DNA of 64,000 nt. It comes from PVC group bacterium (GTDB lineage: Bacteria; Omnitrophota; Gorgyraeia; B26-G9). Under the pieces are notes generated by a model. That model searched no databases. It was not told the DNA's origin and saw nothing but the letters and a program-made list of their open reading frames with translations. Of the stretch, positions 47,806 through 58,737 are shown in pieces (the stretch's first letter is position 1; each line of letters starts with the position of its first letter). The position numbers were made by a program, and so were the translations under genes. Where the stretch lies: positions 302 through 64,301 of the forward strand of contig JAAEQR010000202.1 of the NCBI GenBank assembly GCA_024231215.1, given 5' to 3'.

Positions 47806-47852
47806 CTATGCCGTCTTTTAATTAAGGCGGCATTTGCTATTTCATGCCGCAG
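47806..47852. terminator. bidirectional terminator region at the convergence of late (+) and early (-) transcription
   Basis: Three mutually complementary segments (ATGCCG / CGGCAT / ATGCCG) form alternative hairpins flanked by T-runs on both strands. The region overlaps the stop of the minus-strand gene ending at 47842. Confidence 0.4.
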
Positions 47853-49850: not shown

Positions 49851-50204
49851 TTAATATTTACGCCTCAATAATTTACCGTTTCTCACAACCCTTCTTTTTC
49901 CACCTTTAAAAACATGCATATCGTCAAAACGAGGGGTATAGCCCAAAACACGCCTACCAAAACTGTACCCAGCATCTGCAATATCGTAATCATTTTTAAA
50001 AATATAGTACATTTCATATAATGTGAAATTATTACAGCTATAAAACTGCATATAACACAATAGCTTAAAAAGCCCATGTATCCACCGGGGTGCCGTTAGA
50101 TCAGTAATATGACAATCATAAAACATTGCATAACATACTACCTTAATTACAGATGATATCTGACTTTGCTCGTCTATTTCTTTATAAATACCGTCTATAT
50201 CCAT
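49851..50204 (-). CDS. hypothetical protein
   Basis: 117-aa ORF. Confidence 0.35.
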   Translation of the reverse strand: MDIDGIYKEIDEQSQISSVIKVVCYAMFYDCHITDLTAPRWIHGLFKLLCYMQFYSCNNFTLYEMYYIFKNDYDIADAGYSFGRRVLGYTPRFDDMHVFKGGKRRVVRNGKLLRRKY

Positions 50205-50330
50205 AGCATTCTCCTTGATTTGCGTTTGCGTTACGTCGTGCTGGCTAAGAGGCCCTGAGAGTCACGAGGATGCCCCACAATCGATTAAACCCCCTCTAAT
50301 GTAAAATACCTCAACTTTTTCAATCGTTGC

Positions 50331-50543
50331 TTATTTACCCCTTTTCGTAAACGGGTGCAGATCTGGCATACACCCACAGTGGGTAGATTTTTCAGCCATA
50401 TCCTTCCAAAGCTTCCTTTTCTCCCCACAATACTTACATCGATACCAACCAAGATAGACTATATTACCATCCATGTCGCGAAATTGACCCGCATCGCCTA
50501 AATATTTCATTTTTTGATATGTTTTCATTTTATTACCCCCCAT
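50331..50543 (-). CDS. zinc-ribbon small protein
   Basis: 70 aa with CKYCG...HCGC. Confidence 0.3.
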   Translation of the reverse strand: MGGNKMKTYQKMKYLGDAGQFRDMDGNIVYLGWYRCKYCGEKRKLWKDMAEKSTHCGCMPDLHPFTKRGK

Positions 50544-50722
50544 TTTTCATCACATTTATAATTATGCTTCTGGGCATATTTCTCCCATGCTTTTTGAGCC
50601 TCTTCCCTGGTAGCATAATCCAACCTACTGTGTATTTCTTCTTCTACCCCCCTTGCCCTCCATGTGAAACGACCCCAAGGTGATAGTTCTCCGGTAATTA
50701 CACATATTTTCTCTTTTTTCAT
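50525..50722 (-). CDS. hypothetical protein
   Basis: 65-aa ORF. Confidence 0.3.
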   Translation of the reverse strand: MKKEKICVITGELSPWGRFTWRARGVEEEIHSRLDYATREEAQKAWEKYAQKHNYKCDEKWGVIK

Positions 50723-50958
50723 ATCACCCCCCTTTTATATTGTTTATATGCAGCTTTAGTATCAAATGCGGTTTCACCATACTCCCACGGTATGGCCGGA
50801 CATCGCTTAATTAAGTTCAACCATGCCATCCTTGCCGTTCTTTTTGAAACATGGCGGTTTGGGCCGAAAAACACCCACCCCGTTTTTGAGCATGTAGCAT
50901 CAATTATAAATTTTCTTGGTTCAACATCGCTATGTACTATATTTACAAGCATTTTCAT
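50719..50958 (-). CDS. hypothetical protein
   Basis: 79-aa ORF. Confidence 0.3.
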   Translation of the reverse strand: MKMLVNIVHSDVEPRKFIIDATCSKTGWVFFGPNRHVSKRTARMAWLNLIKRCPAIPWEYGETAFDTKAAYKQYKRGVI

Positions 50959-50976
50959 ATTATGTCCTTTTTAAAA

Positions 50977-51068
50977 GGGCTGGCGGAATTGGGGTACGCT
51001 CCTAGCAAAATTTTTCATTTAATTTATTAATACCACAAAACGGATTCTTATAACCACACCGCCAGCCC
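50977..51068. repeat. stem-loop element, copy A (GGGCTGGCGG...CCGCCAGCCC)
   Basis: 10-bp perfect inverted-repeat arms flank a 72-nt AT-rich loop. The first 30 nt match copy B at 53698. Confidence 0.5.
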
Positions 51069-51132
51069 GTATTTTACTTTTCGGTATGAATGAGGCGGGA
51101 CTTTAACATTATTTTGAATGGGGGCAAAAAAA

Positions 51133-51318
51133 TCATAAACCCCATACCGCCATAAATACCCCAACAAACGCTGCGACAACACCCAAAGCAAGTAGAATTG
51201 CAACAATGGTCTGAAACCACATGGGGGTTTCGTCGGTACCGGGGCTTACTTGTATCACCATTACCATCAAAACAACAATCGTTAAGCCAGATGAAGCTAT
51301 TTTTAAACCCAACATCAT
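51133..51318 (-). CDS. small membrane protein (two TM helices)
   Basis: 61-aa ORF. Confidence 0.35.
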   Translation of the reverse strand: MMLGLKIASSGLTIVVLMVMVIQVSPGTDETPMWFQTIVAILLALGVVAAFVGVFMAVWGL

Positions 51319-51536
51319 TTTATATCCTCCAATTCAATCAGCAAATCGACATAATGTTTAATTTTCTGTATATCCTGTAACGGGGTGCCTTTCTGGTTAT
51401 ACCGGCACGCGTATTTTATTATCGACCCCTGGATGAAGCTCAAATTGTTTTTGGCAATAAATTCTATCGGCTGTATGGCGAAATTCTTATAGTGGCTGCC
51501 GCCCACCTGCGTATCGCTTGCTTTTTGCTTTTTCAT
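51315..51536 (-). CDS. DUF3310-like phage protein
   Basis: 73 aa with GGSHYKNFAIQPIEFI...IKYACRY..KG, matching the DUF3310 signature. This is from memory. Confidence 0.4.
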   Translation of the reverse strand: MKKQKASDTQVGGSHYKNFAIQPIEFIAKNNLSFIQGSIIKYACRYNQKGTPLQDIQKIKHYVDLLIELEDIK

Positions 51537-51781
51537 ATTATCTTGCTTTTCTTCAATACTTCTTCAACCAAGTCCAAATCACCACGCCAGTCATCGTGTT
51601 TGTTGTTGCAATCACCGGCGCAATGTGCGAATTTGCGAATCAACCTTATCCTACTTTTTGGCTGCATTTTTAACTCCGGGTATGTCAACCCCTCTATTAC
51701 CAGCAATATGCGTTTAAGTTCGGCGATTTTTATTGTGGCTTCTTGAAGTGCCAGTAAAAGGTGTTCTTCGTTGCTTATCAT
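51533..51781 (-). CDS. hypothetical protein
   Basis: 82 aa. The CTCATTATAATGAG palindrome lies 9 nt upstream. Confidence 0.35.
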   Translation of the reverse strand: MISNEEHLLLALQEATIKIAELKRILLVIEGLTYPELKMQPKSRIRLIRKFAHCAGDCNNKHDDWRGDLDLVEEVLKKSKII

Positions 51782-51789
51782 GGCATTTG

Positions 51790-51803
51790 CTCATTATAAT
51801 GAG
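51790..51803. promoter_or_regulatory. 14-bp palindrome CTCATTATAATGAG (copy 3)
   Basis: Exact match, 9 nt 5' of the minus-strand gene starting at 51781. Confidence 0.5.
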
Positions 51804-52180
51804 GATTCTGGTATTTGGTCTATATACACCAATGTGGGTTCTCGGCTTTCTTCGTACCTGTAATAACCAATAAATTCACCCTCACACCACGGCTTAATAA
51901 ATTCAAAAAATTTCTCAATTTCGCTCCCATAATTTTTAATATCACCCTTGGCAAGTAGCGAATATTGTTCACTGATTTTATCATAAGTAAGCAGGCCACA
52001 TTCTGTGTTTGGCGTGTAATAGCTACCATTGTTAAATAAATATGGCCATCTCCCCCCTGAGTTTTTAAAACACTCAGCCGAAGCGTCCTTGTCACACATT
52101 GCCCGAAGTATGTCTATTACTTCTTGTGGCGTGTCTGTTTTTAAATCCACGTTTACATAAATTTCTGTGTACATACCCAT
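51794..52180 (-). CDS. hypothetical protein
   Basis: 128-aa ORF. Confidence 0.35.
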   Translation of the reverse strand: MGMYTEIYVNVDLKTDTPQEVIDILRAMCDKDASAECFKNSGGRWPYLFNNGSYYTPNTECGLLTYDKISEQYSLLAKGDIKNYGSEIEKFFEFIKPWCEGEFIGYYRYEESREPTLVYIDQIPESSL

Positions 52181-52190
52181 AATTGTCTCC

Positions 52191-52979
52191 TTATTTGTTA
52201 TGCGGCGATTCTAATAACGCCTTCACCCCTGCCCACGTATAGCCACCGCCACCAAAAATCTTCAACCTATCAATATCCAAACAACCGTCATGGTAATCTG
52301 TATGGTGTTTTCGACAAAGAATCATGGTGGGGCCGGTAATGCTGCTTACCCCAGCAGACCGAAAAATCAGGTGGTGAATATCCAAACCAGTACGGCAGCC
52401 ACATTTTGCACAGACAATGGCTGAATTTTCAAACCAGGCTATGGTAGACAGCTTTTTCATCGCCAATTCTTTTTCATCCTTTGTGAAAAGTCGTAAGGTC
52501 GAAACCGTGCGGTCTACCTTTGATTCATTTACCGGCGGCAGGCCGTTTGCATCTTTCAATTCTTCGGTTATGTCTTGAATAGGTAATTCAAGCAAGGTTT
52601 TCGCCTTATCCCAACCCTGTTCTAGTGCAAACGTTTTTAGTTTGTCAAGCTTATCTTGGGGTGCACCCAATAATTCTTTTGGCGGTACATTAAGTTTTAA
52701 AATATATGTTTCGTATAATCGAATGTATTTATCTACTGCGCTTGACCCAACACCAAAACAGCTATAACAGAATTCACTGTAATTTTCAGCATAACCCCGC
52801 CATTTTTTCCCATCTTTAAAATATTTGGCAATTTCACCAGCACGAAAAATGCATTTAATCATTAACGCCGTAATATAAATAGCATATTTTCTAAGTTCTT
52901 CGGCGTTATCCTCTTCAACTTTTCGGTGTATCGCCAGATCAATTTCTTCACCCCATAGCATTAATTTATTTTCTGTCAT
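52191..52979 (-). CDS. HNH endonuclease domain protein
   Basis: 262 aa. The C-terminal CAKCGC....DIHHLIFRSAG...LCRKHHTDYHDG block is an HNH motif with a zinc-binding CxxC pair. Confidence 0.5.
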   Translation of the reverse strand: MTENKLMLWGEEIDLAIHRKVEEDNAEELRKYAIYITALMIKCIFRAGEIAKYFKDGKKWRGYAENYSEFCYSCFGVGSSAVDKYIRLYETYILKLNVPPKELLGAPQDKLDKLKTFALEQGWDKAKTLLELPIQDITEELKDANGLPPVNESKVDRTVSTLRLFTKDEKELAMKKLSTIAWFENSAIVCAKCGCRTGLDIHHLIFRSAGVSSITGPTMILCRKHHTDYHDGCLDIDRLKIFGGGGYTWAGVKALLESPHNK

Positions 52980-52985
52980 CTCACC

Positions 52986-53351
52986 TCATGCAATATAACC
53001 TTTGCTGAAAATAATTTCATCTTCGTTTGGCTCTTTAAATTCGGGCGGGATTTTAAAATCAACCACCGCATTTAATCTCTTTTTTCTGCACTTCTTGTGC
53101 CAATTATTGTCCGACAATGCGTGTTTGGCACAGCGAATACCACCAGAAACCGGCATATCACATTCTACACACAACCCATTCTTTTTTCTCTTGTCCCGTC
53201 TTTTCTGCACTGACTTCTTTTGGTAAATTAAATGCTTTTCACAATAAGCACGACCGGGCACGACCGGGTTATTGCACCGCTGGCATAATGAGCTTTCTTT
53301 TCTTCTCTTATACCGAAGTCTTTCGTATGCTCGTTTTTCTTCTAACGTCAT
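52986..53351 (-). CDS. zinc-finger protein
   Basis: 121 aa with repeated CxxC(n)CxxH units. Confidence 0.35.
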   Translation of the reverse strand: MTLEEKRAYERLRYKRRKESSLCQRCNNPVVPGRAYCEKHLIYQKKSVQKRRDKRKKNGLCVECDMPVSGGIRCAKHALSDNNWHKKCRKKRLNAVVDFKIPPEFKEPNEDEIIFSKGYIA

Positions 53352-53470
53352 TTCCCTGCCGGTAATTTAAGTTTTTTTAAGTGCCACCCCACCACAACGG
53401 CGAAAACGAGGGCGGCTGCCACCCATATCGCCAGAAACTCTAATATGTAGAGCAGGATTATCATAATTAA

Positions 53471-53632
53471 GCTCCACACGTACACTCTTCACCACAAAAT
53501 ACCATCTTCGCCGCACATGCCTTTTTATGCCCAGCCTTCATATACTTATCAAACTCAATGTCATCTATTATACAATTTAAGCAAAGGCGGTATAAATATG
53601 CCTCTTCTTCCCCACATCTGCGACAATTCATG
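53471..53632 (-). CDS. zinc-ribbon peptide (not in track)
   Basis: 53-aa ORF MNCRRCGEEEAYLYRLCLNC... Coordinates are approximate. Confidence 0.2.
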
Positions 53633-53697
53633 GTTTCACCCCATTTGTATAAATTCTAAATTGTCTTTTTTGCTCATAATATCACCTGTTAAATAAG

Positions 53698-53759
53698 GGG
53701 CTGGCGGAATTGGGGTACACTCCTGGAAAAGTTTCCTCTTATTAATTTGCCGCCAGCCC
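53698..53759. repeat. stem-loop element, copy B (GGGCTGGCGG...CCGCCAGCCC)
   Basis: 10-bp perfect arms with a 42-nt loop and an internal GGAAA/TTTCC hairpin. The 3' arm overlaps the stop of the 53742..53945 gene. Confidence 0.5.
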
Positions 53760-53945
53760 TATTATAGTTATCGGTTCACCATTAGCCAAGCTTAAGGTTT
53801 TTTTGCATGGGCGTGAATTTTTTGGTAATATTGAAAAACCCTCTAGTTTTAACATATATTCTGCCCACACTTCGCAACCACGGCATGGTTCGTCCATAAT
53901 GCACTTAACTGCTTCGTCATATGGGCATTGCTTTTGTTTGTTCAT
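53742..53945 (-). CDS. Cys-containing small protein
   Basis: 67-aa ORF. Confidence 0.3.
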   Translation of the reverse strand: MNKQKQCPYDEAVKCIMDEPCRGCEVWAEYMLKLEGFSILPKNSRPCKKTLSLANGEPITIIGLAAN

Positions 53946-53947
53946 GG

Positions 53948-54139
53948 CTATTTACACCTTTTTACAACAGGACACTTACCATAAGAACAACGAACATCCA
54001 TCATTGGCGCACCCCATCCTGTATTAAATTGACACCACAATTTATCTTCTTGTTCATCTACCCATCTACAATTTTTTCGAAATGTCCTAAAGCTTACATA
54101 TAAACTAGGACTGCCCGTACCCTTTACATATTTTTTCAT
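53948..54139 (-). CDS. hypothetical protein (start at internal Met MKKYVKG)
   Basis: The track ORF extends to 54229, but a start at 54139 leaves the palindrome 10 nt upstream, as for the other early genes. The protein is Cys-rich. Confidence 0.3.
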   Translation of the reverse strand: MKKYVKGTGSPSLYVSFRTFRKNCRWVDEQEDKLWCQFNTGWGAPMMDVRCSYGKCPVVKRCK

Positions 54140-54148
54140 AGCATAATC

Positions 54149-54162
54149 CTCATTATAATGAG
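54149..54162. promoter_or_regulatory. 14-bp palindrome CTCATTATAATGAG (copy 4)
   Basis: Exact match, 10 nt 5' of the minus-strand start at 54139. Confidence 0.5.
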
Positions 54163-54215
54163 CATTTTGGTGGGGCCGGGCGGAATCAAACCGCCACACA
54201 CCTGCTTTCTTTAAA

Positions 54216-54401
54216 TTAACTGCCGTCATCGTTTAAAATTGACTCTATAATCTTAGCCAATGCAGATATGGCTGCCCCTTGGTTCCCAAAGTATTCAGCA
54301 ACGGTTTTTCCGTTAAAGGGGCGACCATCAAATTTTTTTGCATCATTTTTCATATCTACTGCTATCATTTTTAAGACTTTAATTCTTTTATCGTCAGCCA
54401 T
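54216..54401 (-). CDS. hypothetical protein
   Basis: 61-aa ORF. Confidence 0.3.
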   Translation of the reverse strand: MADDKRIKVLKMIAVDMKNDAKKFDGRPFNGKTVAEYFGNQGAAISALAKIIESILNDDGS

Positions 54402-54558
54402 TTTTTAATCCTCCTTTTAGTTAACCATAATCGTCGTTTCTTTTCTGTTTTAGAAAATATATAAAATCGTCGTCGGTTAGTTTGAAAAAATGGGTGAAGG
54501 ACAAGCCCTGTATCATGCCCCCCACCCGGTTATCCACAGACACCCGGAAGGTATGGGT

Positions 54559-55041
54559 TTAACGGATCGTCTGTGGTTTATGTTCAAGCGTATATTCTTT
54601 ATTGTTAATAATTATGCTTTCATCACGTTCTAGCTGTGCAATTTCGTCCCGTTTCAAAAATGCAATGTTGGCATGGTAGCTACTGCAAAAACTACAGCGC
54701 AGACAGGTGGTGTATTTTCTCCCATCAATCACATGCTTTATAAAAATAAGACCAATATCACAATGATTACATTCAGTACCGTCCCAGTGTGACTCCCCGG
54801 TTTCGCCTTGGTCGCTACGTGCTTTCTGCTCCTGTTTTCGCACCATATACCGTAAATACTTATAAGTGAATTTAGCGTCTGTGTCACCCGTTGTTATTTC
54901 TTCTGCCGCTGCTTCTAAATGCGAAAGTTTGCTATATTTTAACTTATCCCATGCAAAATCTATAAAATCCTTTTTAACAACAAGGTTATTCAGCACCACT
55001 ATTCGCTTAATTACGGTTGAAAATTCGGCTATTGAGATCAT
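54559..55041 (-). CDS. Cys-rich hypothetical protein
   Basis: 160 aa with a CNHCD...CLRCSFC cluster. The palindrome lies 7 nt upstream. Confidence 0.35.
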   Translation of the reverse strand: MISIAEFSTVIKRIVVLNNLVVKKDFIDFAWDKLKYSKLSHLEAAAEEITTGDTDAKFTYKYLRYMVRKQEQKARSDQGETGESHWDGTECNHCDIGLIFIKHVIDGRKYTTCLRCSFCSSYHANIAFLKRDEIAQLERDESIIINNKEYTLEHKPQTIR

Positions 55042-55047
55042 AATACC

Positions 55048-55061
55048 CTCATTATAATGAG
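55048..55061. promoter_or_regulatory. 14-bp palindrome CTCATTATAATGAG (copy 5)
   Basis: Exact match, 7 nt 5' of the minus-strand start at 55041. Confidence 0.5.
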
Positions 55062-55693
55062 CATTTTACTTTATAAACAATTGGTTTTTGAAACTCACCC
55101 AATATGTAATTTTTGTTATCACCTTTTGGATAAGGTTTGGTTTTATAATTTAATTTTAAAATAACCTGTTTTTTAAATTTTCTGTTTTTTATTGCAAAAA
55201 AAACATACCTGTGTTTGGCTGTCCTTATTTTTCTAAACTCACCCTGATCTTTATTTTTAGTATGTCTTGAATGTTTATTGCCTAATGTGTATTTAACAGT
55301 TCTTTGTTTTGTACAACCAGTATATAAAAAATTACACGCTTGATAAATATACCCATGATGATCCATATTCGTATCACTATAGGCAACAATTATTACATTT
55401 TCAAAACTAAGTCGCCTTAAACAAGCACCAACAAATGCACTTAATGGTTCATTTAAATCATCTACACGGCAAAGCCTATTTAATTCAAAAACCATAAAGG
55501 AGAATTCTTTACCACATATACCATTGCATAAAGTGTTAGAGGCTGGTTTACCAAAAGTGCAAACAGCTTGTAATTTGTTATCAATAAACCAACCCCACGC
55601 CCAAGAAATAGACGGCATACGTCCCGAATAGTGCTTTGGTAGTAAAAAATCCCGACATTCTTTATATGTTAAGTGTTTTATTTTGCCCCTCAT
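55052..55693 (-). CDS. possible Mom-like (acyltransferase-fold) DNA-modification protein
   Basis: 213 aa. The N-terminal KHYSGRMP...FGKP and C-terminal AYSD...HHGYIYQACNFLYTGCT blocks resemble phage Mu Mom as recalled from memory (..HYS...P..FGRP / ..YAD...GH.GTIYQAAGW.Y.G). No alignment was run. Confidence 0.3.
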   Translation of the reverse strand: MRGKIKHLTYKECRDFLLPKHYSGRMPSISWAWGWFIDNKLQAVCTFGKPASNTLCNGICGKEFSFMVFELNRLCRVDDLNEPLSAFVGACLRRLSFENVIIVAYSDTNMDHHGYIYQACNFLYTGCTKQRTVKYTLGNKHSRHTKNKDQGEFRKIRTAKHRYVFFAIKNRKFKKQVILKLNYKTKPYPKGDNKNYILGEFQKPIVYKVKCSL

Positions 55694-56409
55694 ACATATT
55701 CACTTTCTTTCGGCTGCCGGTATTCTATAACTTCGTCCTCCCACCGGCGACCATTCAAATAGGTTGACGGGTGCGGTATATACTGCGGTTCACGCCATTG
55801 CACTTCAATTTGTCGTGCAACCGCCGCCATAATTTCTGTAATTAGTTCTTCGTCAGGTTTTAACTTATAAAATGCTTTACGTGCCTGTTCTTTGTTCGTC
55901 CTTCTGGGGTAGCAGAAATAAAACCATTCAAAAAAAAGGTTTTGGTTACTGTCAGGCGTGACAACGCCTTCTCTTATATTATATTCTATTATATTATAAT
56001 TATAATTAGGGGCACATTTGGCAACCTGAAGTTCACCAAAACCAAGGGCTTCGTGCTTGTCTGGATTATATTCAGGCAGTTCGCTTTTTTGGTAACGGTC
56101 AGACCTAAATGTTTGAAATTTAGCCCATTTTAAGATTTGTATATATTTATTGCCGGTCGAAATGTCAGCGTACCAGATAATTAAATTATTGACCGATAAA
56201 TCGCATAAGAATGACCGGACTTTGCTCGTTTTGTGTTTTAAAAGTGGAAACACGAGTCCCTTGATGTAATTTTCTTCACCTTGGATGCGCCCGTCGTCGT
56301 CACAATGTGGTATTAACCACGTAAAAAGTAACCTCGCAGTGTCACTTTTTAACCTCGAAACTCTTAAACTTGTGCAAATTGATTTTGCTAACATACGTTT
56401 GGTTGCCAT
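55690..56409 (-). CDS. phage replisome organizer / replication initiation protein-like
   Basis: 239 aa. The N-terminal ARLLFTWLIPHCDDDGRIQG resembles the phage replisome-organizer N-domain. The C-terminal FEWFYFCYPRR..KEQARKAFYKLKPDEEL..IM.AV.RQ...W.....IPHPSTYLNGRRWEDE matches the conserved C-terminal domain of phage replication proteins. Confidence 0.45.
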   Translation of the reverse strand: MATKRMLAKSICTSLRVSRLKSDTARLLFTWLIPHCDDDGRIQGEENYIKGLVFPLLKHKTSKVRSFLCDLSVNNLIIWYADISTGNKYIQILKWAKFQTFRSDRYQKSELPEYNPDKHEALGFGELQVAKCAPNYNYNIIEYNIREGVVTPDSNQNLFFEWFYFCYPRRTNKEQARKAFYKLKPDEELITEIMAAVARQIEVQWREPQYIPHPSTYLNGRRWEDEVIEYRQPKESEYV

Positions 56410-56422
56410 TTTTTTAACCTGT

Positions 56423-56968
56423 TTATAATTGTATTACTGCGGCAGAATATACTTTGTCTCGCAGTAATTTTGTTGGTATTGCTACATTGTGTGTGTTGTA
56501 ACCCTTGTTTTTTGCTGGCGGTATTTTAAAGTTGATTTTCCACTCATTTTTAAATTTTAACCAAACCCTTCTTAGTAATTGCCACGGAAATAAATAACAA
56601 ACTTGTGTTGGCATAAAAGCATAAGCTAAATAGTCTATTAGCAGGTCTTTTTCCATCCAGCCGGGTGCACCAGTCGTGTCATTTGATAAGTATTCAAGAA
56701 GAATGTCATTATATGTGCCCCGTCTTTTTTTCTCATCAATATATAATGTTTTACCGCTTTTTAAGTAGATTAGTCTGTCAATGCCCAAACGCTGTCCTTG
56801 GTTATTGCCTTTACATTGAATATTATAAAGCATGTCTGGAAAAGCTTTGGTATAAATTGCTTGCCAAAAATTCTCTTCACTGGCATTTTCGCTAAATTTT
56901 AAATCCTCGTGAAAATTATTTAATTTCGTTGCCATAACTTGTCCAACCCTCTCTTTCTTCTCTTGCAA
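56423..56968 (-). CDS. hypothetical protein, possible PD-(D/E)XK-like nuclease
   Basis: 181 aa. The GIDRLIYLKSGKTLYIDEKK block could be a D...(D/E)xK core. This is weak. Confidence 0.25.
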   Translation of the reverse strand: MQEKKERVGQVMATKLNNFHEDLKFSENASEENFWQAIYTKAFPDMLYNIQCKGNNQGQRLGIDRLIYLKSGKTLYIDEKKRRGTYNDILLEYLSNDTTGAPGWMEKDLLIDYLAYAFMPTQVCYLFPWQLLRRVWLKFKNEWKINFKIPPAKNKGYNTHNVAIPTKLLRDKVYSAAVIQL

Positions 56969-58016
56969 AAACTTCTGCTTTGGGTAAATCCGGATACATT
57001 TTCTCTATTATTTCATAAAACACCTGCGGTTTTTTACTGTGTTCTAATCGTGGTGCAATAACGACAGAAGCTATTCTGTCCTCTGGTTCTGGCATGGGTG
57101 GTTCGCCTATTTTTGCTATTAAAAGTAATTCGTGTTTTTGCCTTACGTAATAGCCCATACCAATTTTGTCTTTCACCCACACCATGCAGGTTCTATAATT
57201 AAAATTCCATTGGTTTATAACTTCAATGCTTTCGGCTAGTTTGGGGCTGGTTGTCCACAAAAATAAAATACAATTATTTGCTGTAATTTTGTGGATCGGG
57301 TAGTTTTTTATGTCTTCTAACTGCATTGTTGGATATTGTTTTTCAATTGCTCGGCTATGCGAAACAACGTGTTCATATTGCCACGGTGGGTCACAATATA
57401 AAACAGCATGTTTTTTATTGTCCAAGCAGTCTGTAATAATGCTTTCGTGCCGCATTATTTTTTTTTCTTGCCCTGTAATATTTTTATATATTTCATTAAT
57501 AGAACTATTTCCTTCTGTAAGGGCTTCTTTTTGCTCAGCTGTTGCCTGCTGATTTATTTTTTTTACTTTGGTTATTGTATCGTGTGAAACACCGGCCTCT
57601 TTAGCAAGTTCTTGGCGTGTTTCTATAGCTTTGGCAGAAGTCTGCGGAACCTTTTCAACCCCCCCCGCCTGTTGTTTTGTTTTGGCTTTTGCTTGATAAT
57701 ATTCTTCAAGTTGTAATGCTAAAACACTGCGTTGATATGCGTTTATATTTCTCCTTCCAAACTGATTTTTAACAATCCATATTTTTGCTGCTGCTTCAGA
57801 TTCAATAATATATTTTATTTTTTTTATGTCAAAATCAATGTCGTGTTTATGGCATATTGCATACCGATTATGCCCATCAATTATGGTATCACGCCACGTT
57901 ATAATGGGGTTTAGACATCCATTTGTTAAAATATTTTGTTCTAGTTGTTTATATTCTTGTTCGGTGAGTGGTGGTATTATTGCTTTAAATTCGGGGTTCA
58001 CGGCAATTTCTTTCAT
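56916..58016 (-). CDS. ParB-like nuclease domain fused to N6-adenine DNA methyltransferase (MT-A70/DPPW type)
   Basis: 366 aa. The N-terminal ParB/Sulfiredoxin-like region reads IDGHNRY. The C-terminal methyltransferase has a DPPW catalytic motif (LYCDPPWQYE). Confidence 0.6.
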   Translation of the reverse strand: MKEIAVNPEFKAIIPPLTEQEYKQLEQNILTNGCLNPIITWRDTIIDGHNRYAICHKHDIDFDIKKIKYIIESEAAAKIWIVKNQFGRRNINAYQRSVLALQLEEYYQAKAKTKQQAGGVEKVPQTSAKAIETRQELAKEAGVSHDTITKVKKINQQATAEQKEALTEGNSSINEIYKNITGQEKKIMRHESIITDCLDNKKHAVLYCDPPWQYEHVVSHSRAIEKQYPTMQLEDIKNYPIHKITANNCILFLWTTSPKLAESIEVINQWNFNYRTCMVWVKDKIGMGYYVRQKHELLLIAKIGEPPMPEPEDRIASVVIAPRLEHSKKPQVFYEIIEKMYPDLPKAEVFAREEREGWTSYGNEIK

Positions 58017-58033
58017 ATTTCGGCCTTTCGTAG

Positions 58034-58113
58034 AAAAAATTAAAGGCAGAAAGAGCTAAATAAGGTATAGAGATCACCTCTGCTGGTGTTGCCACTCAGC
58101 AACTCTTTCTGCC
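58034..58113 (-). terminator. rho-independent terminator (long hairpin)
   Basis: 11-bp perfect arms GGCAGAAAGAG / CTCTTTCTGCC followed on the minus strand by TTTAATTTTTT. It lies downstream of the tRNA pair and upstream of the ParB-MTase start. Confidence 0.5.
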
Positions 58114-58251
58114 TGGTTGTTTGTTGGATTGTTTGTTTAAAAAATGACATACAGCCTCTTGTTTTTATTTATACTCAACAGTATAGCATACCCACCCACC
58201 TTGTCAAGCCCTAAAAGTTGTTGTTTCAAATGCGGCGGATTCAAATAAAAC

Positions 58252-58373
58252 GGCTGGCGGGCAGGATTCGAACCTGCACGGGGAGGCGTTCTCAGCCTTT
58301 ATCCCCTCTTGACATTGGTGCCTAGGACATGCCTTCCAGCGTCTAGCCATACACATTTCCGCCACCGCCAGCC
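58252..58373 (-). ncRNA. aberrant tRNA-like element (122 nt) with canonical T-arm and acceptor pairing
   Basis: On the minus strand it has GCAGG-TTCGAAT-CCTGC (T-arm) followed by CCGCCAG-C. This pairs with a 5' CTGGCGG (or GGCTGGCGG, 9 bp) followed by U at the position-8 equivalent. A long GGGGA...TCCCC hairpin sits where a variable arm would be. No standard anticodon arm is found and the element is about 35 nt longer than a class II tRNA. Confidence 0.3.
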
Positions 58374-58381
58374 GTTATTAT

Positions 58382-58457
58382 TGGCGAATCGGCGGGGACT
58401 CGAACCCCGAACCGCTGGTTTTGGAGACCAGTGCTCTAGCCGTTGAGCTACCGACTC
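58382..58457 (-). tRNA. tRNA-Trp (anticodon CCA), CCA 3' end encoded
   Basis: Manual fold: acceptor GAGTCGG/CCGATTC (one G-U), D-arm GCTC-AACGGCTA-GAGC, anticodon arm CTGGT-CTCCAAA-ACCAG, variable CGGTT, T-arm CGGGG-TTCGAGT-CCCCG, discriminator G, then CCA. Confidence 0.75.
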
Positions 58458-58463
58458 GATTTA

Positions 58464-58477
58464 CTCATTATAATGAG
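58464..58477. promoter_or_regulatory. 14-bp palindrome CTCATTATAATGAG (copy 6)
   Basis: Exact match, 6 nt 5' of the tRNA-Trp 5' end on the minus strand. Confidence 0.5.
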
Positions 58478-58561
58478 TGTTTTAATAAAGGCACCGACCG
58501 CCACAAACAGCCGCAGAAAAGGGGGGTAAGCTGCGGTTAGGGGTCAGTCGGTGCCGCTTGT

Positions 58562-58714
58562 TTATCTAGTAAAAGCAAAATAAATAACATATAGCCACCC
58601 AAAAATGCCGTGCAAAATGGCCCACAAGATAGATTTGTATAATGACCATGAAATGGATACGGCTATAGCTGCTCCCAGCGAAATGCCTGTACTCGTTGTG
58701 GTTGAATTTGCCAT
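58562..58714 (-). CDS. small membrane protein (about 50 aa, not in track)
   Basis: MANSTTTSTGISLGAAIAVSISWSLYKSILWAILHGIFGWLYVIYFAFTR with an AAAGGAGAAAAT ribosome-binding site upstream. Confidence 0.3.
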   Translation of the reverse strand: MANSTTTSTGISLGAAIAVSISWSLYKSILWAILHGIFGWLYVIYFAFTR

Positions 58715-58737
58715 AATTTTCTCCTTTTTATAATCGT

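What the first reader, a model, noticed from the sequence alone, without database searches (positions are those of the whole stretch)
50977..58373. Stem-loop element family GGGCTGGCGG...CCGCCAGCCC in three copies, one of which is a 122-nt tRNA-like RNA
Copies A (50977-51068) and B (53698-53759) share perfect 10-bp arms and their first about 30 nt (GGGCTGGCGGAATTGGGGTAC[G/A]CTCCT...). Their loops differ.

Copy C (58252-58373) shares the same 9-bp arms. Inside, it has a canonical T-arm (GCAGG-TTCGAAT-CCTGC) and the arms serve as its acceptor stem.

This could be a tRNA-derived mobile minihelix or MITE-like element spreading in the early region. It could also be a family of structured RNAs such as processing sites or attenuators. 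A third possibility is a tRNA gene interrupted by an insertion or intron.

A degenerate relative, GGCGGAATCAAACCGCC, lies at about 54181.
Basis: seen in the sequence. Interest (0 to 1): 0.7.

Follow-up and report, generated by a model that had tools for sequence, protein, structure and literature searches.

The report
tRNA-derived hairpin repeats in a phage
An uncultivated phage carries three copies of one identical GC-rich hairpin stem: one copy closes a degenerate, oversized tRNA-like gene next to a real tRNA-Trp, and the other two are cut-down, flipped copies sitting between early genes, most likely serving as transcript-end or attenuator hairpins rather than anything unprecedented.

Summary
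GGCTGGCGG occurs six times, as three inverted pairs, against 0.13 expected. The tenth, outermost pair is G-C in A and B and C-G in C.

C (58251-58374, minus strand) lies 8 nt after tRNA-Trp. It has a 7-bp acceptor stem, a canonical T-arm and a tRNA-Leu-like D region, but no normal anticodon arm. Default ARAGORN misses it. Rfam tRNA-Sec scores 27.7 bits against a threshold of 47. Intron mode calls tRNA(GGA) with a 44-nt insert, and 4.7% of interior-shuffled controls also get a call.

A and B are paralogues whose homology extends beyond the arms. Their conserved core matches positions 8-31 of E. coli tRNA-Leu on the plus strand only, so they look like truncated copies inverted relative to C.

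All three lie in non-coding gaps (B's 5' arm overlaps an ORF end) of the minus-strand early region, each downstream of a repeated palindrome, CTCATTATAATGAG. U-rich tracts follow A and C, and weakly B. A near-consensus sigma-70 promoter follows C.

No homologues turned up in viral, genome or metagenome collections, so structure and function remain inferred.

Best reading: tRNA-derived terminator, attenuator or stability hairpins. The MITE, intron-tRNA and processing-site readings are weaker but not excluded.

The parts
58251..58374 (-). Copy C: a 120-124-nt tRNA-like element. The closing helix is CGGCUGGCGG/CCGCCAGCCG. Of this, the 7-bp acceptor stem is CUGGCGG/CCGCCAG; the rest is leader/trailer pairing.
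   Evidence: MFE -54.9 kcal/mol, z -3.0, five-way junction; tRNA-Sec 27.7 bits, threshold 47; ARAGORN intron mode, 58252-58371
58261..58277 (-). T-arm of C, GCAGG-UUCGAAU-CCUGC, stacked directly on the 3' acceptor strand.
58339..58364 (-). tRNA-Leu-like U8-C25 region of C, UGGCGGAAAU[GUGUAU]GGCUAGACGC. It forms a tandem UGGCGG-UGGCGG with the 5' arm.
   Evidence: alignment to E. coli leuV: p=0.0075 on the minus strand, not significant on the plus strand
58243..58250 (-). U-tract UUUUAUUU immediately after C's closing helix.
   Evidence: read directly
58180..58207 (-). Near-consensus sigma-70 promoter TTGACA-16-(TG)TATACT, about 35 nt after C's U-tract. It drives the ParB/MT-A70 methyltransferase operon.
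   Evidence: 11 of 12 matches, the best in the region
58382..58457 (-). Genuine tRNA-Trp(CCA) with an encoded CCA end, 8 nt upstream of C on the same strand.
   Evidence: RF00005, 66.8 bits
58464..58477 (.). Palindrome CTCATTATAATGAG, 6 nt upstream of the tRNA-Trp 5' end. It is the putative promoter or operator of the tRNA-Trp + C unit.
53698..53759 (.). Copy B: 10-bp arms (11 bp with the G-U pair 53697/53760) around a 42-nt interior. The tRNA-Leu-like core reads on the plus strand. The surrounding genes are transcribed on the minus strand.
   Evidence: B+ versus leuV p=0.0015; B- not significant
50977..51068 (.). Copy A: 10-bp arms around a 72-nt interior. It is equivalent to B plus a 32-nt AT-rich extra segment. 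The tRNA-Leu-like core GGCGGAAUUGGGGUACGCUCCUAGC reads on the plus strand.
   Evidence: A+ versus leuV p=0.0005; A- not significant
50951..51085 (.). Full A repeat unit. A/B homology continues about 25 nt to the left, covering the RBS and ATG of the next minus-strand gene 50719-50958, and 16 nt to the right.
   Evidence: left flank p=0.02; right flank 13 of 16 identical, p=0.0075
53671..53776 (.). Full B repeat unit, with the same extent as A's. The stop codon of ORF 53742-53945 lies inside B. An AGGTGA RBS and an ATG at 53678 follow.

Best explanation
The three elements are a lineage-specific family of stem-loops derived from a type-II (Leu-like) tRNA gene.

C is the most complete copy. It is co-transcribed with tRNA-Trp from the palindrome-associated start site. 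It keeps the acceptor stem, T-arm and D-loop signature. Its D-loop, anticodon region and variable arm are expanded, so it is probably not a decoding tRNA. Its acceptor helix is lengthened to 12 bp by leader/trailer pairing and is followed by UUUUAUUU. That helix ends the small RNA-only unit just before a strong sigma-70 promoter.

A and B are truncated copies, inverted relative to C. They keep only the helix, the D-arm remnant and short flanks. The arms are a perfect inverted repeat, so the same helix, 5'-GGGCUGGCGG...CCGCCAGCCC-3', forms in RNA read from either strand. In the minus-strand early mRNA, A and B therefore sit as strong hairpins between a stop codon and the next ribosome-binding site. 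Each one closes a short gene group that begins at a CTCATTATAATGAG motif. The proposal is that they act as leaky intrinsic terminators (attenuators) and/or as 3'-end hairpins that stabilise the upstream message.

Shown: the repeat, the fold potential, the tRNA similarity with its strand specificity, the position in non-coding gaps, and the flanking signals.
Inferred: transcription, termination or stabilisation, and the evolutionary origin.
For: - Non-random family: 6 matches against 0.13 expected. Such families are absent from about 160 control loci.
- Constraint on the helix: 18 of 18 arm bases are identical in all three copies and the tenth pair is flipped compensatorily. Meanwhile the A/B interior is about 20% diverged with indels, and C's interior cannot be aligned to it.
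- tRNA ancestry: C has a canonical T-arm abutting the acceptor stem. The leuV 5' half matches A+ (p=0.0005), B+ (p=0.0015) and C- (p=0.0075), and does not match the reverse orientations.
- Gene-cluster context: C lies 8 nt after a genuine tRNA-Trp on the same strand.
- Terminator-like context on the transcribed strand: UUUUAUUU after C, UUUU after A, and a weaker CUUAUUU after B. The best sigma-70 promoter of the region starts about 35 nt after C's U-tract.
- Unit architecture: each of A, B and C lies 100-800 nt downstream of a copy of the palindromic motif, which recurs every 3-4 kb.
- Folding: all three fold better than shuffles, with z-scores of -2.4 to -3.9.
- Cassette-like duplication: the A/B repeat unit includes the downstream RBS and ATG.
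Against: - No homologue exists in any collection searched, so there is no covariation or conservation test.
- Loops of 42-104 nt are far outside the 3-8 nt typical of intrinsic terminators, and the terminator scan did not call these elements.
- B's U-tract is poor.
- Genes after A and B have no recognisable promoter of their own, so any termination must be partial.
- Nine invariant pairs alongside fully diverged interiors suggest sequence-specific recognition, which simple hairpin stability does not explain.
- The conserved U-rich tail of A and B (UAUUUUACUUUUCGG) lies on the plus-strand side, antisense to the genes.
- There are no expression data.
Confidence: 0.45

Rival explanations
1. tRNA punctuation. 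The shared helix mimics an acceptor stem and recruits tRNA-processing enzymes (RNase P at its 5' side; RNase Z/E and the CCA-adding enzyme at its 3' side). These enzymes cut the polycistronic early transcript at A and B and release C as a stable tRNA-like RNA.
For: - The helix is exactly C's acceptor stem and reads the same from either strand.
- C sits in tandem with tRNA-Trp, as in tRNA clusters.
- Nine invariant base pairs suggest recognition of a specific helix, not just of stability.
- From general knowledge, E. coli RNase P is known to cut some intercistronic hairpins.
Against: - A and B lack a T-arm, so there is no 12-bp acceptor/T coaxial stack.
- No RCCA follows the helices.
- RNase P is not known to need a particular stem sequence, so the sequence invariance is not explained either.
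- None of this was testable here.
Confidence: 0.15
2. C is a functional decoding tRNA, with anticodon GGA or another, that carries a 44-nt insertion or intron at position 37/38. The insert is either removed or tolerated. A and B are unrelated by-products.
For: - ARAGORN in intron mode returns a 76-nt cloverleaf with anticodon loop CUGGAAA and the insert at the canonical 37/38 site.
- The acceptor stem and T-arm are perfect.
- Rfam tRNA-Sec gives E=0.0007 on the local search.
Against: - Default ARAGORN makes no call.
- The Rfam score is 27.7 bits against a threshold of 47.
- 4.7% of interior-shuffled controls are also called.
- The predicted D stem and anticodon stem contain mismatches.
- That D stem conflicts with the better-supported Leu-like D-arm reading.
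- No bulge-helix-bulge motif could be drawn by eye.
- From general knowledge, bacterial tRNA introns are group I introns of more than 200 nt.
- A class-I tRNA with a Ser anticodon would lack the long arm that SerRS needs.
Confidence: 0.07
3. MITE-like or other mobile element. A short non-autonomous element with 10-bp terminal inverted repeats has inserted three times, once into or next to a tRNA gene.
For: - Identical 10-bp terminal inverted repeats enclose variable interiors of 42, 72 and 104 nt.
- The copies occur in both orientations.
- The copies lie in non-coding gaps between genes, with B's 5' arm overlapping an ORF end.
Against: - No target-site duplication is present at any copy.
- A/B homology runs past the repeats into the flanks, which fits segmental duplication better than transposition.
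- In C, the 'terminal repeats' are the functional acceptor stem of a tRNA-like fold.
- No transposase was found in the window.
- No copies were found elsewhere.
Confidence: 0.08
4. DNA-level signal. GGCTGGCGG is a protein or nuclease recognition sequence, for example a host Chi-like octamer presented in both orientations. Alternatively, the repeats are recombination cassettes like T4-type PeSLs, which shuffle gene modules.
For: - GCTGGCGG differs by one base from E. coli Chi, GCTGGTGG (from memory). It occurs 11 times against 1.7 expected under an order-3 Markov model.
- A and B are direct repeats that bracket a 2.6-kb block of small accessory genes, including an HNH-like ORF.
- C plus the downstream sigma-70 promoter resembles a composite terminator/promoter cassette (PMC4122927).
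- The same 10-11-mer ends an Rfam RNA (RF02932) upstream of the homologous methyltransferase gene in another phage lineage.
Against: - Six of the 11 octamer copies are the arms themselves. The remaining five, against about 1.7 expected, are unremarkable on a G-rich coding strand.
- The host and its Chi sequence are unknown.
- A/B homology of 60-135 nt is short for recombination.
- There is no promoter after A or B.
- The RF02932 match has p of only 0.01-0.05, and C does not score against that model.
Confidence: 0.1
5. Decaying tRNA-gene debris with no present function. The arms are identical only because the duplications are recent.
For: - This is a singleton genome with no conservation data.
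- Other tRNA scraps are nearby: 54168-54195, and GGCGGATTCAAA at 58234.
- C fails the tRNA models.
Against: - The arms are 100% identical, while the adjacent D-arm remnant and interiors have diverged strongly or beyond alignment.
- The outermost pair is compensated.
- All copies sit in non-coding gaps between a stop codon (or the tRNA) and the next start signal.
Confidence: 0.12

Closest known systems
Bacterial type-II tRNA genes (tRNA-Leu; compared with E. coli leuV) and phage pseudo-tRNAs
   Same: C has a 7-bp acceptor stem, U8-G9, a GCGG-AA..GG..AGACGC D region, a GU junction before a canonical GGUUCGAAUCC T-arm, and a tandem position after tRNA-Trp. A and B retain the U8-to-31 segment.
   Different: C is about 120 nt rather than 85-87 nt. 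It has no 5-bp/7-nt anticodon arm and no encoded CCA, and it scores below every tRNA model threshold. A and B lack the T-arm and the whole 3' half.
PeSLs: composite terminator/promoter cassettes of T4-type phages (PMC2839356, PMC4122927)
   Same: These are repeated, conserved stem-loop cassettes in non-coding gaps among small early accessory genes. C is followed by a near-perfect sigma-70 promoter. The A/B unit carries expression signals (RBS and ATG) along with the hairpin.
   Different: PeSL stem-loops are short, simple hairpins followed by a promoter, and there are dozens of copies per genome. Here there are three copies with 42-104-nt interiors and a tRNA origin. A and B have no promoter after them, and this is not a T4-like phage.
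Correia repeat-enclosed elements and other bacterial MITEs (PMC2649163, PMC2229807)
   Same: Both are short elements of 60-150 bp with terminal inverted repeats and size variants caused by internal deletion. Both are co-transcribed with neighbouring genes, so the repeats form an mRNA hairpin.
   Different: Correia elements have 26-bp repeats, TA target duplications and hundreds of copies. None of those features is seen here.
Intrinsic (including bidirectional) terminators
   Same: A GC-rich helix is flanked by an A-rich tract upstream and a U-rich tract downstream on both strands. C sits at the end of a transcription unit.
   Different: The 'loop' is 42-104 nt of structured or AT-rich sequence, not 3-8 nt. 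B's U-tract is weak.
Rfam RF02932, Betaproteobacteria-1 RNA
   Same: It is about 120 nt and lies immediately upstream of the homologous ParB/MT-A70 methyltransferase gene in loci L079-81 and L383. Its conserved 3' end, CGGCUGGCGGG, equals C's arm.
   Different: No other similarity was found. C gives no hit to the model even at E<=10. RF02932 has no T-arm. The shared 10-11-mer may be chance (p 0.01-0.05).

Membership tests
tRNA (RF00005 / ARAGORN), copy C | 7-bp acceptor stem, with the T-arm (5 bp plus a UUCRANY loop) directly abutting its 3' strand | tested here: met
   CUGGCGG/CCGCCAG and GCAGG-UUCGAAU-CCUGC
tRNA (RF00005 / ARAGORN), copy C | Contiguous 5-bp anticodon stem with a 7-nt loop | tested here: not met
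   It can only be drawn by removing 44 nt, and the stem then has an A-C mismatch. The MFE fold shows three irregular hairpins instead.
tRNA (RF00005 / ARAGORN), copy C | Score above the detection threshold of standard tRNA finders | tested here: not met
   Default ARAGORN makes no call. The best clan member, tRNA-Sec, scores 27.7 bits against 47. The intron-mode call has a 4.7% false-positive rate in shuffles.
tRNA-Sec | 13-bp acceptor-plus-T stack (8/5 or 9/4), a 6-bp D stem with a 4-nt loop, and a UCA anticodon | tested here: not met
   The helix is 7/5, or 9-10/5 if the flanks are counted. The D stem in the alignment has a mismatch. No UCA loop is present.
Intrinsic terminator | GC-rich stem immediately followed by a U-tract on the transcribed strand | tested here: met
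   C: UUUUAUUU. A: UUUU. B: the weaker CUUAUUU.
Intrinsic terminator | Compact hairpin with a loop of about 3-8 nt | tested here: not met
   The interiors are 42, 72 and 104 nt, and the scan did not report these elements.
MITE | Terminal inverted repeats | tested here: met
   10 bp, perfect, in all three copies
MITE | Target-site duplication flanking each copy | tested here: not met
   The flanks are AAAA/GTAT, TAAG/TATT and AAAC/GTTA, with no direct repeat.
MITE | Many dispersed copies and/or a parent transposase | tested here: not met
   There are three copies in one genome. No homologue was found in IMG/VR or JGI metagenomes, and no transposase was found in the window.
PeSL cassette | Stem-loop followed at a short distance by an early sigma-70-type promoter | tested here: inconclusive
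   Met for C. Not met for A or B, where the RBS follows directly.
PeSL cassette | Repeats bound indels between closely related phage genomes | not testable with these tools
   No close relative exists. The nearest methyltransferase homologue is 55% identical and the nearest capsid protein about 50%.
RF02932 Betaproteobacteria-1 RNA | Covariance-model match | tested here: not met
   No hit at E<=10 on the window, although L079 scores 91 bits.
tmRNA (for the hairpin at 54168-54195) | Full tRNA-like domain plus a tag reading frame | tested here: not met
   beta_tmRNA scores 20.8 bits against 84, covering only model positions 86-157. ARAGORN finds no tmRNA. The would-be 5' half lies inside a real gene.

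The most novel reading that the evidence does not exclude
The identical helix is a portable acceptor-stem tag. Under this reading the phage uses tRNA-processing or tRNA-binding machinery (RNase P/Z, the CCA-adding enzyme, or a phage protein specific for this helix) to punctuate and regulate its early polycistronic transcripts. This would parallel mitochondrial tRNA punctuation. C would be a stable, non-decoding tRNA-like RNA, possibly a decoy or regulator, made alongside tRNA-Trp.
Probability: 0.12. Interest if true: 0.7.

Novelty: new variant of a known kind. Interest (0 to 1): 0.35.

Why it matters
If the reading is right, a phage has recycled pieces of a tRNA gene, in both orientations, as regulatory hairpins for its early operons. 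That would link pseudo-tRNAs, terminator cassettes and modular gene shuffling.

The strict invariance of nine base pairs hints at a specific helix-recognising factor worth looking for.

As it stands, this is a single uncultivated genome with no relatives and no expression data. The finding is a tidy curiosity rather than a general principle.

Tried and rejected
1. Homologue searches.
- Megablast of 50000-59000 against INPHARED phages found no match.
- Exact 20-26-mers from the A/B core and from C's T-arm plus acceptor found nothing in IMG/VR.
- Arm-pair patterns with gaps gave more than 120 hits per scan in IMG/VR. All were chance or coding matches in GC-rich phages. A 113-nt class is a methyltransferase coding segment.
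- A JGI metagenome scan with the A/B core plus arms gave 11 hits, all GC-rich coding matches such as the peptide LAELA.
- nhmmer of A, B and C against 400 fetched loci found only themselves.

2. Host tRNA or attP idea. C's T-arm plus acceptor 3' end has only two irrelevant exact matches in 185,579 GTDB species genomes.

3. Synteny. Loci encoding the homologous methyltransferase have no tRNAs and no comparable hairpin family. One lineage carries RF02932 at the equivalent position. Its shared CGGCUGGCGGG is probably coincidence.

4. A fourth tRNA-like element at 54168-54276. Rejected because its 5' half lies in a real gene with a strong RBS.

5. Coding reading. The ORFs overlapping C (53 aa) and A (52 aa) have no PHROG hits. 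That is uninformative, but there is no support for a coding role.

6. Chi-like enrichment. It is weak once the arms are excluded.

7. Plus-strand promoters upstream of A and B. None was found.

8. Literature. The Weinberg 2017 main text has nothing on Betaproteobacteria-1, and no supplements are held.

Full report
What the window is. The window is a phage-like contig. Structural genes (terminase, portal, major head protein) lie on the plus strand up to about 47.5 kb. Small early and replication genes lie on the minus strand from 47.8 kb to the end. An identical copy of the methyltransferase at 56916-58016 is recorded once, on a 64.6-kb contig binned as a 'PVC group bacterium' MAG. The next-best homologue is 55% identical. 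The best capsid relatives in IMG/VR are about 50% identical. The finding therefore sits in a genome without close relatives, which limits every comparative test below.

The observation. GGCTGGCGG occurs six times, as three inverted pairs. The expectation is 0.13, and none of 100 shuffles reached six. A (50977-51068) and B (53698-53759) have perfect 10-bp arms. C (58251-58374) has the same nine pairs, with the tenth flipped from G-C to C-G, and its helix extends to 12 bp. A and B are homologous through their interiors (score 47 against 15 +/- 2.8). They are also homologous beyond the arms: 25 nt on the left (p=0.02) and 16 nt on the right (13 of 16 identical, p=0.0075). C shares only the arms with them. 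In about 160 loci from distant relatives, only two showed any repeated 9-mer inverted pair. Each had two copies, and both were in GC-rich coding DNA. The family is real.

What C is. C lies on the minus strand, 8 nt after a genuine tRNA-Trp(CCA). It has a 7-bp acceptor stem, CUGGCGG/CCGCCAG, with leader and trailer adding 3-5 further pairs. A canonical T-arm, GCAGG-UUCGAAU-CCUGC, stacks on it. The 5' region, UGGCGGAAAU..GGCUAGACGC, aligns to positions 8-25 of E. coli tRNA-Leu with a 6-nt insertion. Its predicted fold is a five-way junction (-54.9 kcal/mol, z -3.0).

C fails as a standard tRNA. Default ARAGORN is silent. The best Rfam model, tRNA-Sec, gives 27.7 bits against a threshold of 47. 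No 5-bp/7-nt anticodon arm is present.

With introns allowed, ARAGORN proposes a 76-nt tRNA(GGA) with a 44-nt insert at position 37/38. When I kept the acceptor and T-arm and shuffled the interior, 14 of 300 sequences were also called. The proposed stems contain mismatches. They also conflict with the Leu-like D-arm reading. I therefore regard C as a tRNA-derived, probably non-decoding RNA, while keeping the insert-bearing tRNA as a low-probability rival.

What A and B are. It matches on the plus strand only: A+ p=0.0005 and B+ p=0.0015, with the reverse orientations not significant. C matches on the minus strand (p=0.0075).

A and B therefore look like truncated copies of a C-like element, inverted relative to C and to the surrounding genes. 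They have lost one of C's tandem UGGCGG units, the anticodon and variable region, and the T-arm. Because the arms are a perfect inverted repeat, the helix reads identically in RNA from either strand. An inverted copy thus preserves the helix in the minus-strand mRNA.

Context. On the transcribed (minus) strand, each element sits in a gap.
- B begins within the last codons of ORF 53742-53945 and is followed by an AGGTGA RBS and an ATG.
- A is followed by UUUUAAAAAGGA and the ATG of gene 50719-50958.
- C is followed by UUUUAUUU. About 35 nt later comes the best sigma-70 promoter of the region, TTGACA-16-TATACT with a TG extension, which drives the methyltransferase/replication operon.

A 14-16-bp palindrome, CTCATTATAATGAG, occurs seven times (0.02 expected). 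It recurs every 3-4 kb through the early region, 6-12 nt before start codons and 6 nt before tRNA-Trp. A, B and C each lie 100-800 nt downstream of a copy. This gives units of motif, then short genes or RNAs, then hairpin. Some other motif copies are preceded by ordinary small hairpins (the one at 61811, and a less certain one at 58464), and 54149 is preceded by the T-arm-like hairpin at 54168-54195.

This arrangement is what one expects if the helices mark transcript ends or attenuation points. Genes after A and B have no evident promoter, so any termination there must be leaky.

Constraint. Eighteen of 18 arm bases are identical across copies, while the interiors are 20% diverged (A against B) or cannot be aligned (A/B against C). 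The one difference in the helix is compensatory. This argues for selection on the helix. Because so little covaries, it argues for selection on the helix's sequence as well as its pairing. Hairpin stability alone does not explain that. It leaves room for a helix-specific factor, such as tRNA-processing enzymes or a phage protein, or for a DNA-level signal.

Alternatives examined.
- MITE: inverted repeats are present, but there are no target duplications, homology runs into the flanks, there is no transposase, and no copies exist elsewhere.
- Host tRNA or attP fragment: no GTDB genome carries this T-arm and acceptor end in a tRNA.
- Chi-like signal: GCTGGCGG is enriched (11 against 1.7 expected), but six copies are the arms.
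- RF02932: this Rfam RNA lies just upstream of the homologous methyltransferase gene in another phage lineage and ends in CGGCUGGCGGG. However, C does not match the model, and the shared 10-11-mer has p of about 0.01-0.05. I record it as an unresolved coincidence.
- PeSL cassettes of T4-type phages (PMC2839356, PMC4122927): these are the nearest described analogue of a conserved hairpin-plus-expression-signal cassette. C plus its promoter fits that pattern. A and B do not.

The 'degenerate relative'. The sequence at 54168-54195 (minus strand) is GGCGG-UUUGAUU-CCGCC-CGGCCCC-ACCA. It resembles a tRNA 3' fragment and gives weak partial tmRNA hits (20.8 bits against 84). Its would-be 5' half lies inside a real gene with a strong RBS, and ARAGORN finds nothing there. 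It does not carry the family arms.

Verdict. The most likely account (about 0.45) is a small, lineage-specific family of tRNA-Leu-derived stem-loops. One is still a tRNA-like RNA co-transcribed with tRNA-Trp, whose extended acceptor helix plus U-tract ends the unit. The other two are inverted, truncated copies kept as hairpins between early genes, acting as attenuators or RNA-end stabilisers. Transcription, termination and processing are all inferred. With no relatives and no expression data, the finding is of moderate interest. It is a new variant of known kinds (pseudo-tRNA, terminator cassette). A minority possibility is that the invariant helix is a recognition tag for tRNA-processing machinery.

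Noticed in passing
window 3778, 47511, 51790, 54149, 55048, 58464, 61811 (each 14 nt): The palindrome CTCATTATAATGAG, often extended to the 16-bp GCTCATTATAATGAGC, has seven exact copies against 0.02 expected. It recurs every 3-4 kb in the early region, 6-12 nt before start codons and 6 nt before tRNA-Trp. It is likely a phage promoter (-10 TATAAT without a clear -35) and/or the operator of a dimeric regulator.
   Followed up: partly
window 54168-54195 (-): A T-arm-like hairpin, GGCGG-UUUGAUU-CCGCC, is followed by CGGCCCC-ACCA, which resembles a tRNA or tmRNA 3' end. It sits between the stop codon of gene 54216-54401 and the palindrome at 54149. The beta_tmRNA hit is weak (20.8 bits against a threshold of 84), and ARAGORN finds nothing.
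   Followed up: partly
L079 9743-9865, L080 1971-2093, L081 9743-9865, L383 9743-9864: Rfam RF02932 (Betaproteobacteria-1 RNA, 91 bits) lies about 135 nt upstream of the ParB/MT-A70 methyltransferase gene, which is homologous to window 56916-58016. Its conserved 3' end, CGGCUGGCGGG, equals the arm of copy C, which occupies the equivalent position in the window. This may be chance (p 0.01-0.05).
   Followed up: partly
window 58180-58207 (-) and 58035-58115 (-): A near-consensus extended sigma-70 promoter drives the methyltransferase/replication operon. Its roughly 155-nt 5' UTR contains a long hairpin, seen as a weak rli24-like hit of 21 bits.
   Followed up: no
window 53637-53678 (-): A 13-codon mini-ORF (MSKKDNLEFIQMG) with an AGGTGA RBS lies directly after copy B. 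Its stop overlaps the RBS and start region of the next ORF (53467-53631), which suggests a leader peptide or translational coupling.
   Followed up: no
window-wide; 23991, 24006, 26140, 45614, 56514 plus the six arms: The octamer GCTGGCGG differs by one base from E. coli Chi (from memory). It occurs 11 times against 1.7 expected under an order-3 Markov model. The five non-arm copies are all on the plus strand.
   Followed up: partly
window 47808-47833: A 10-bp hairpin, ATGCCGTCTT-TTAATT-AAGGCGGCAT, sits at the point where the plus-strand late genes and the minus-strand early genes converge. It is a likely bidirectional terminator.
   Followed up: no
window 58204-58365 (-): A 53-codon, Cys-rich ORF with a GTG start runs through copy C. 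It has no PHROG match and no obvious RBS, so it is probably spurious. This was not tested against the large protein databases.
   Followed up: partly
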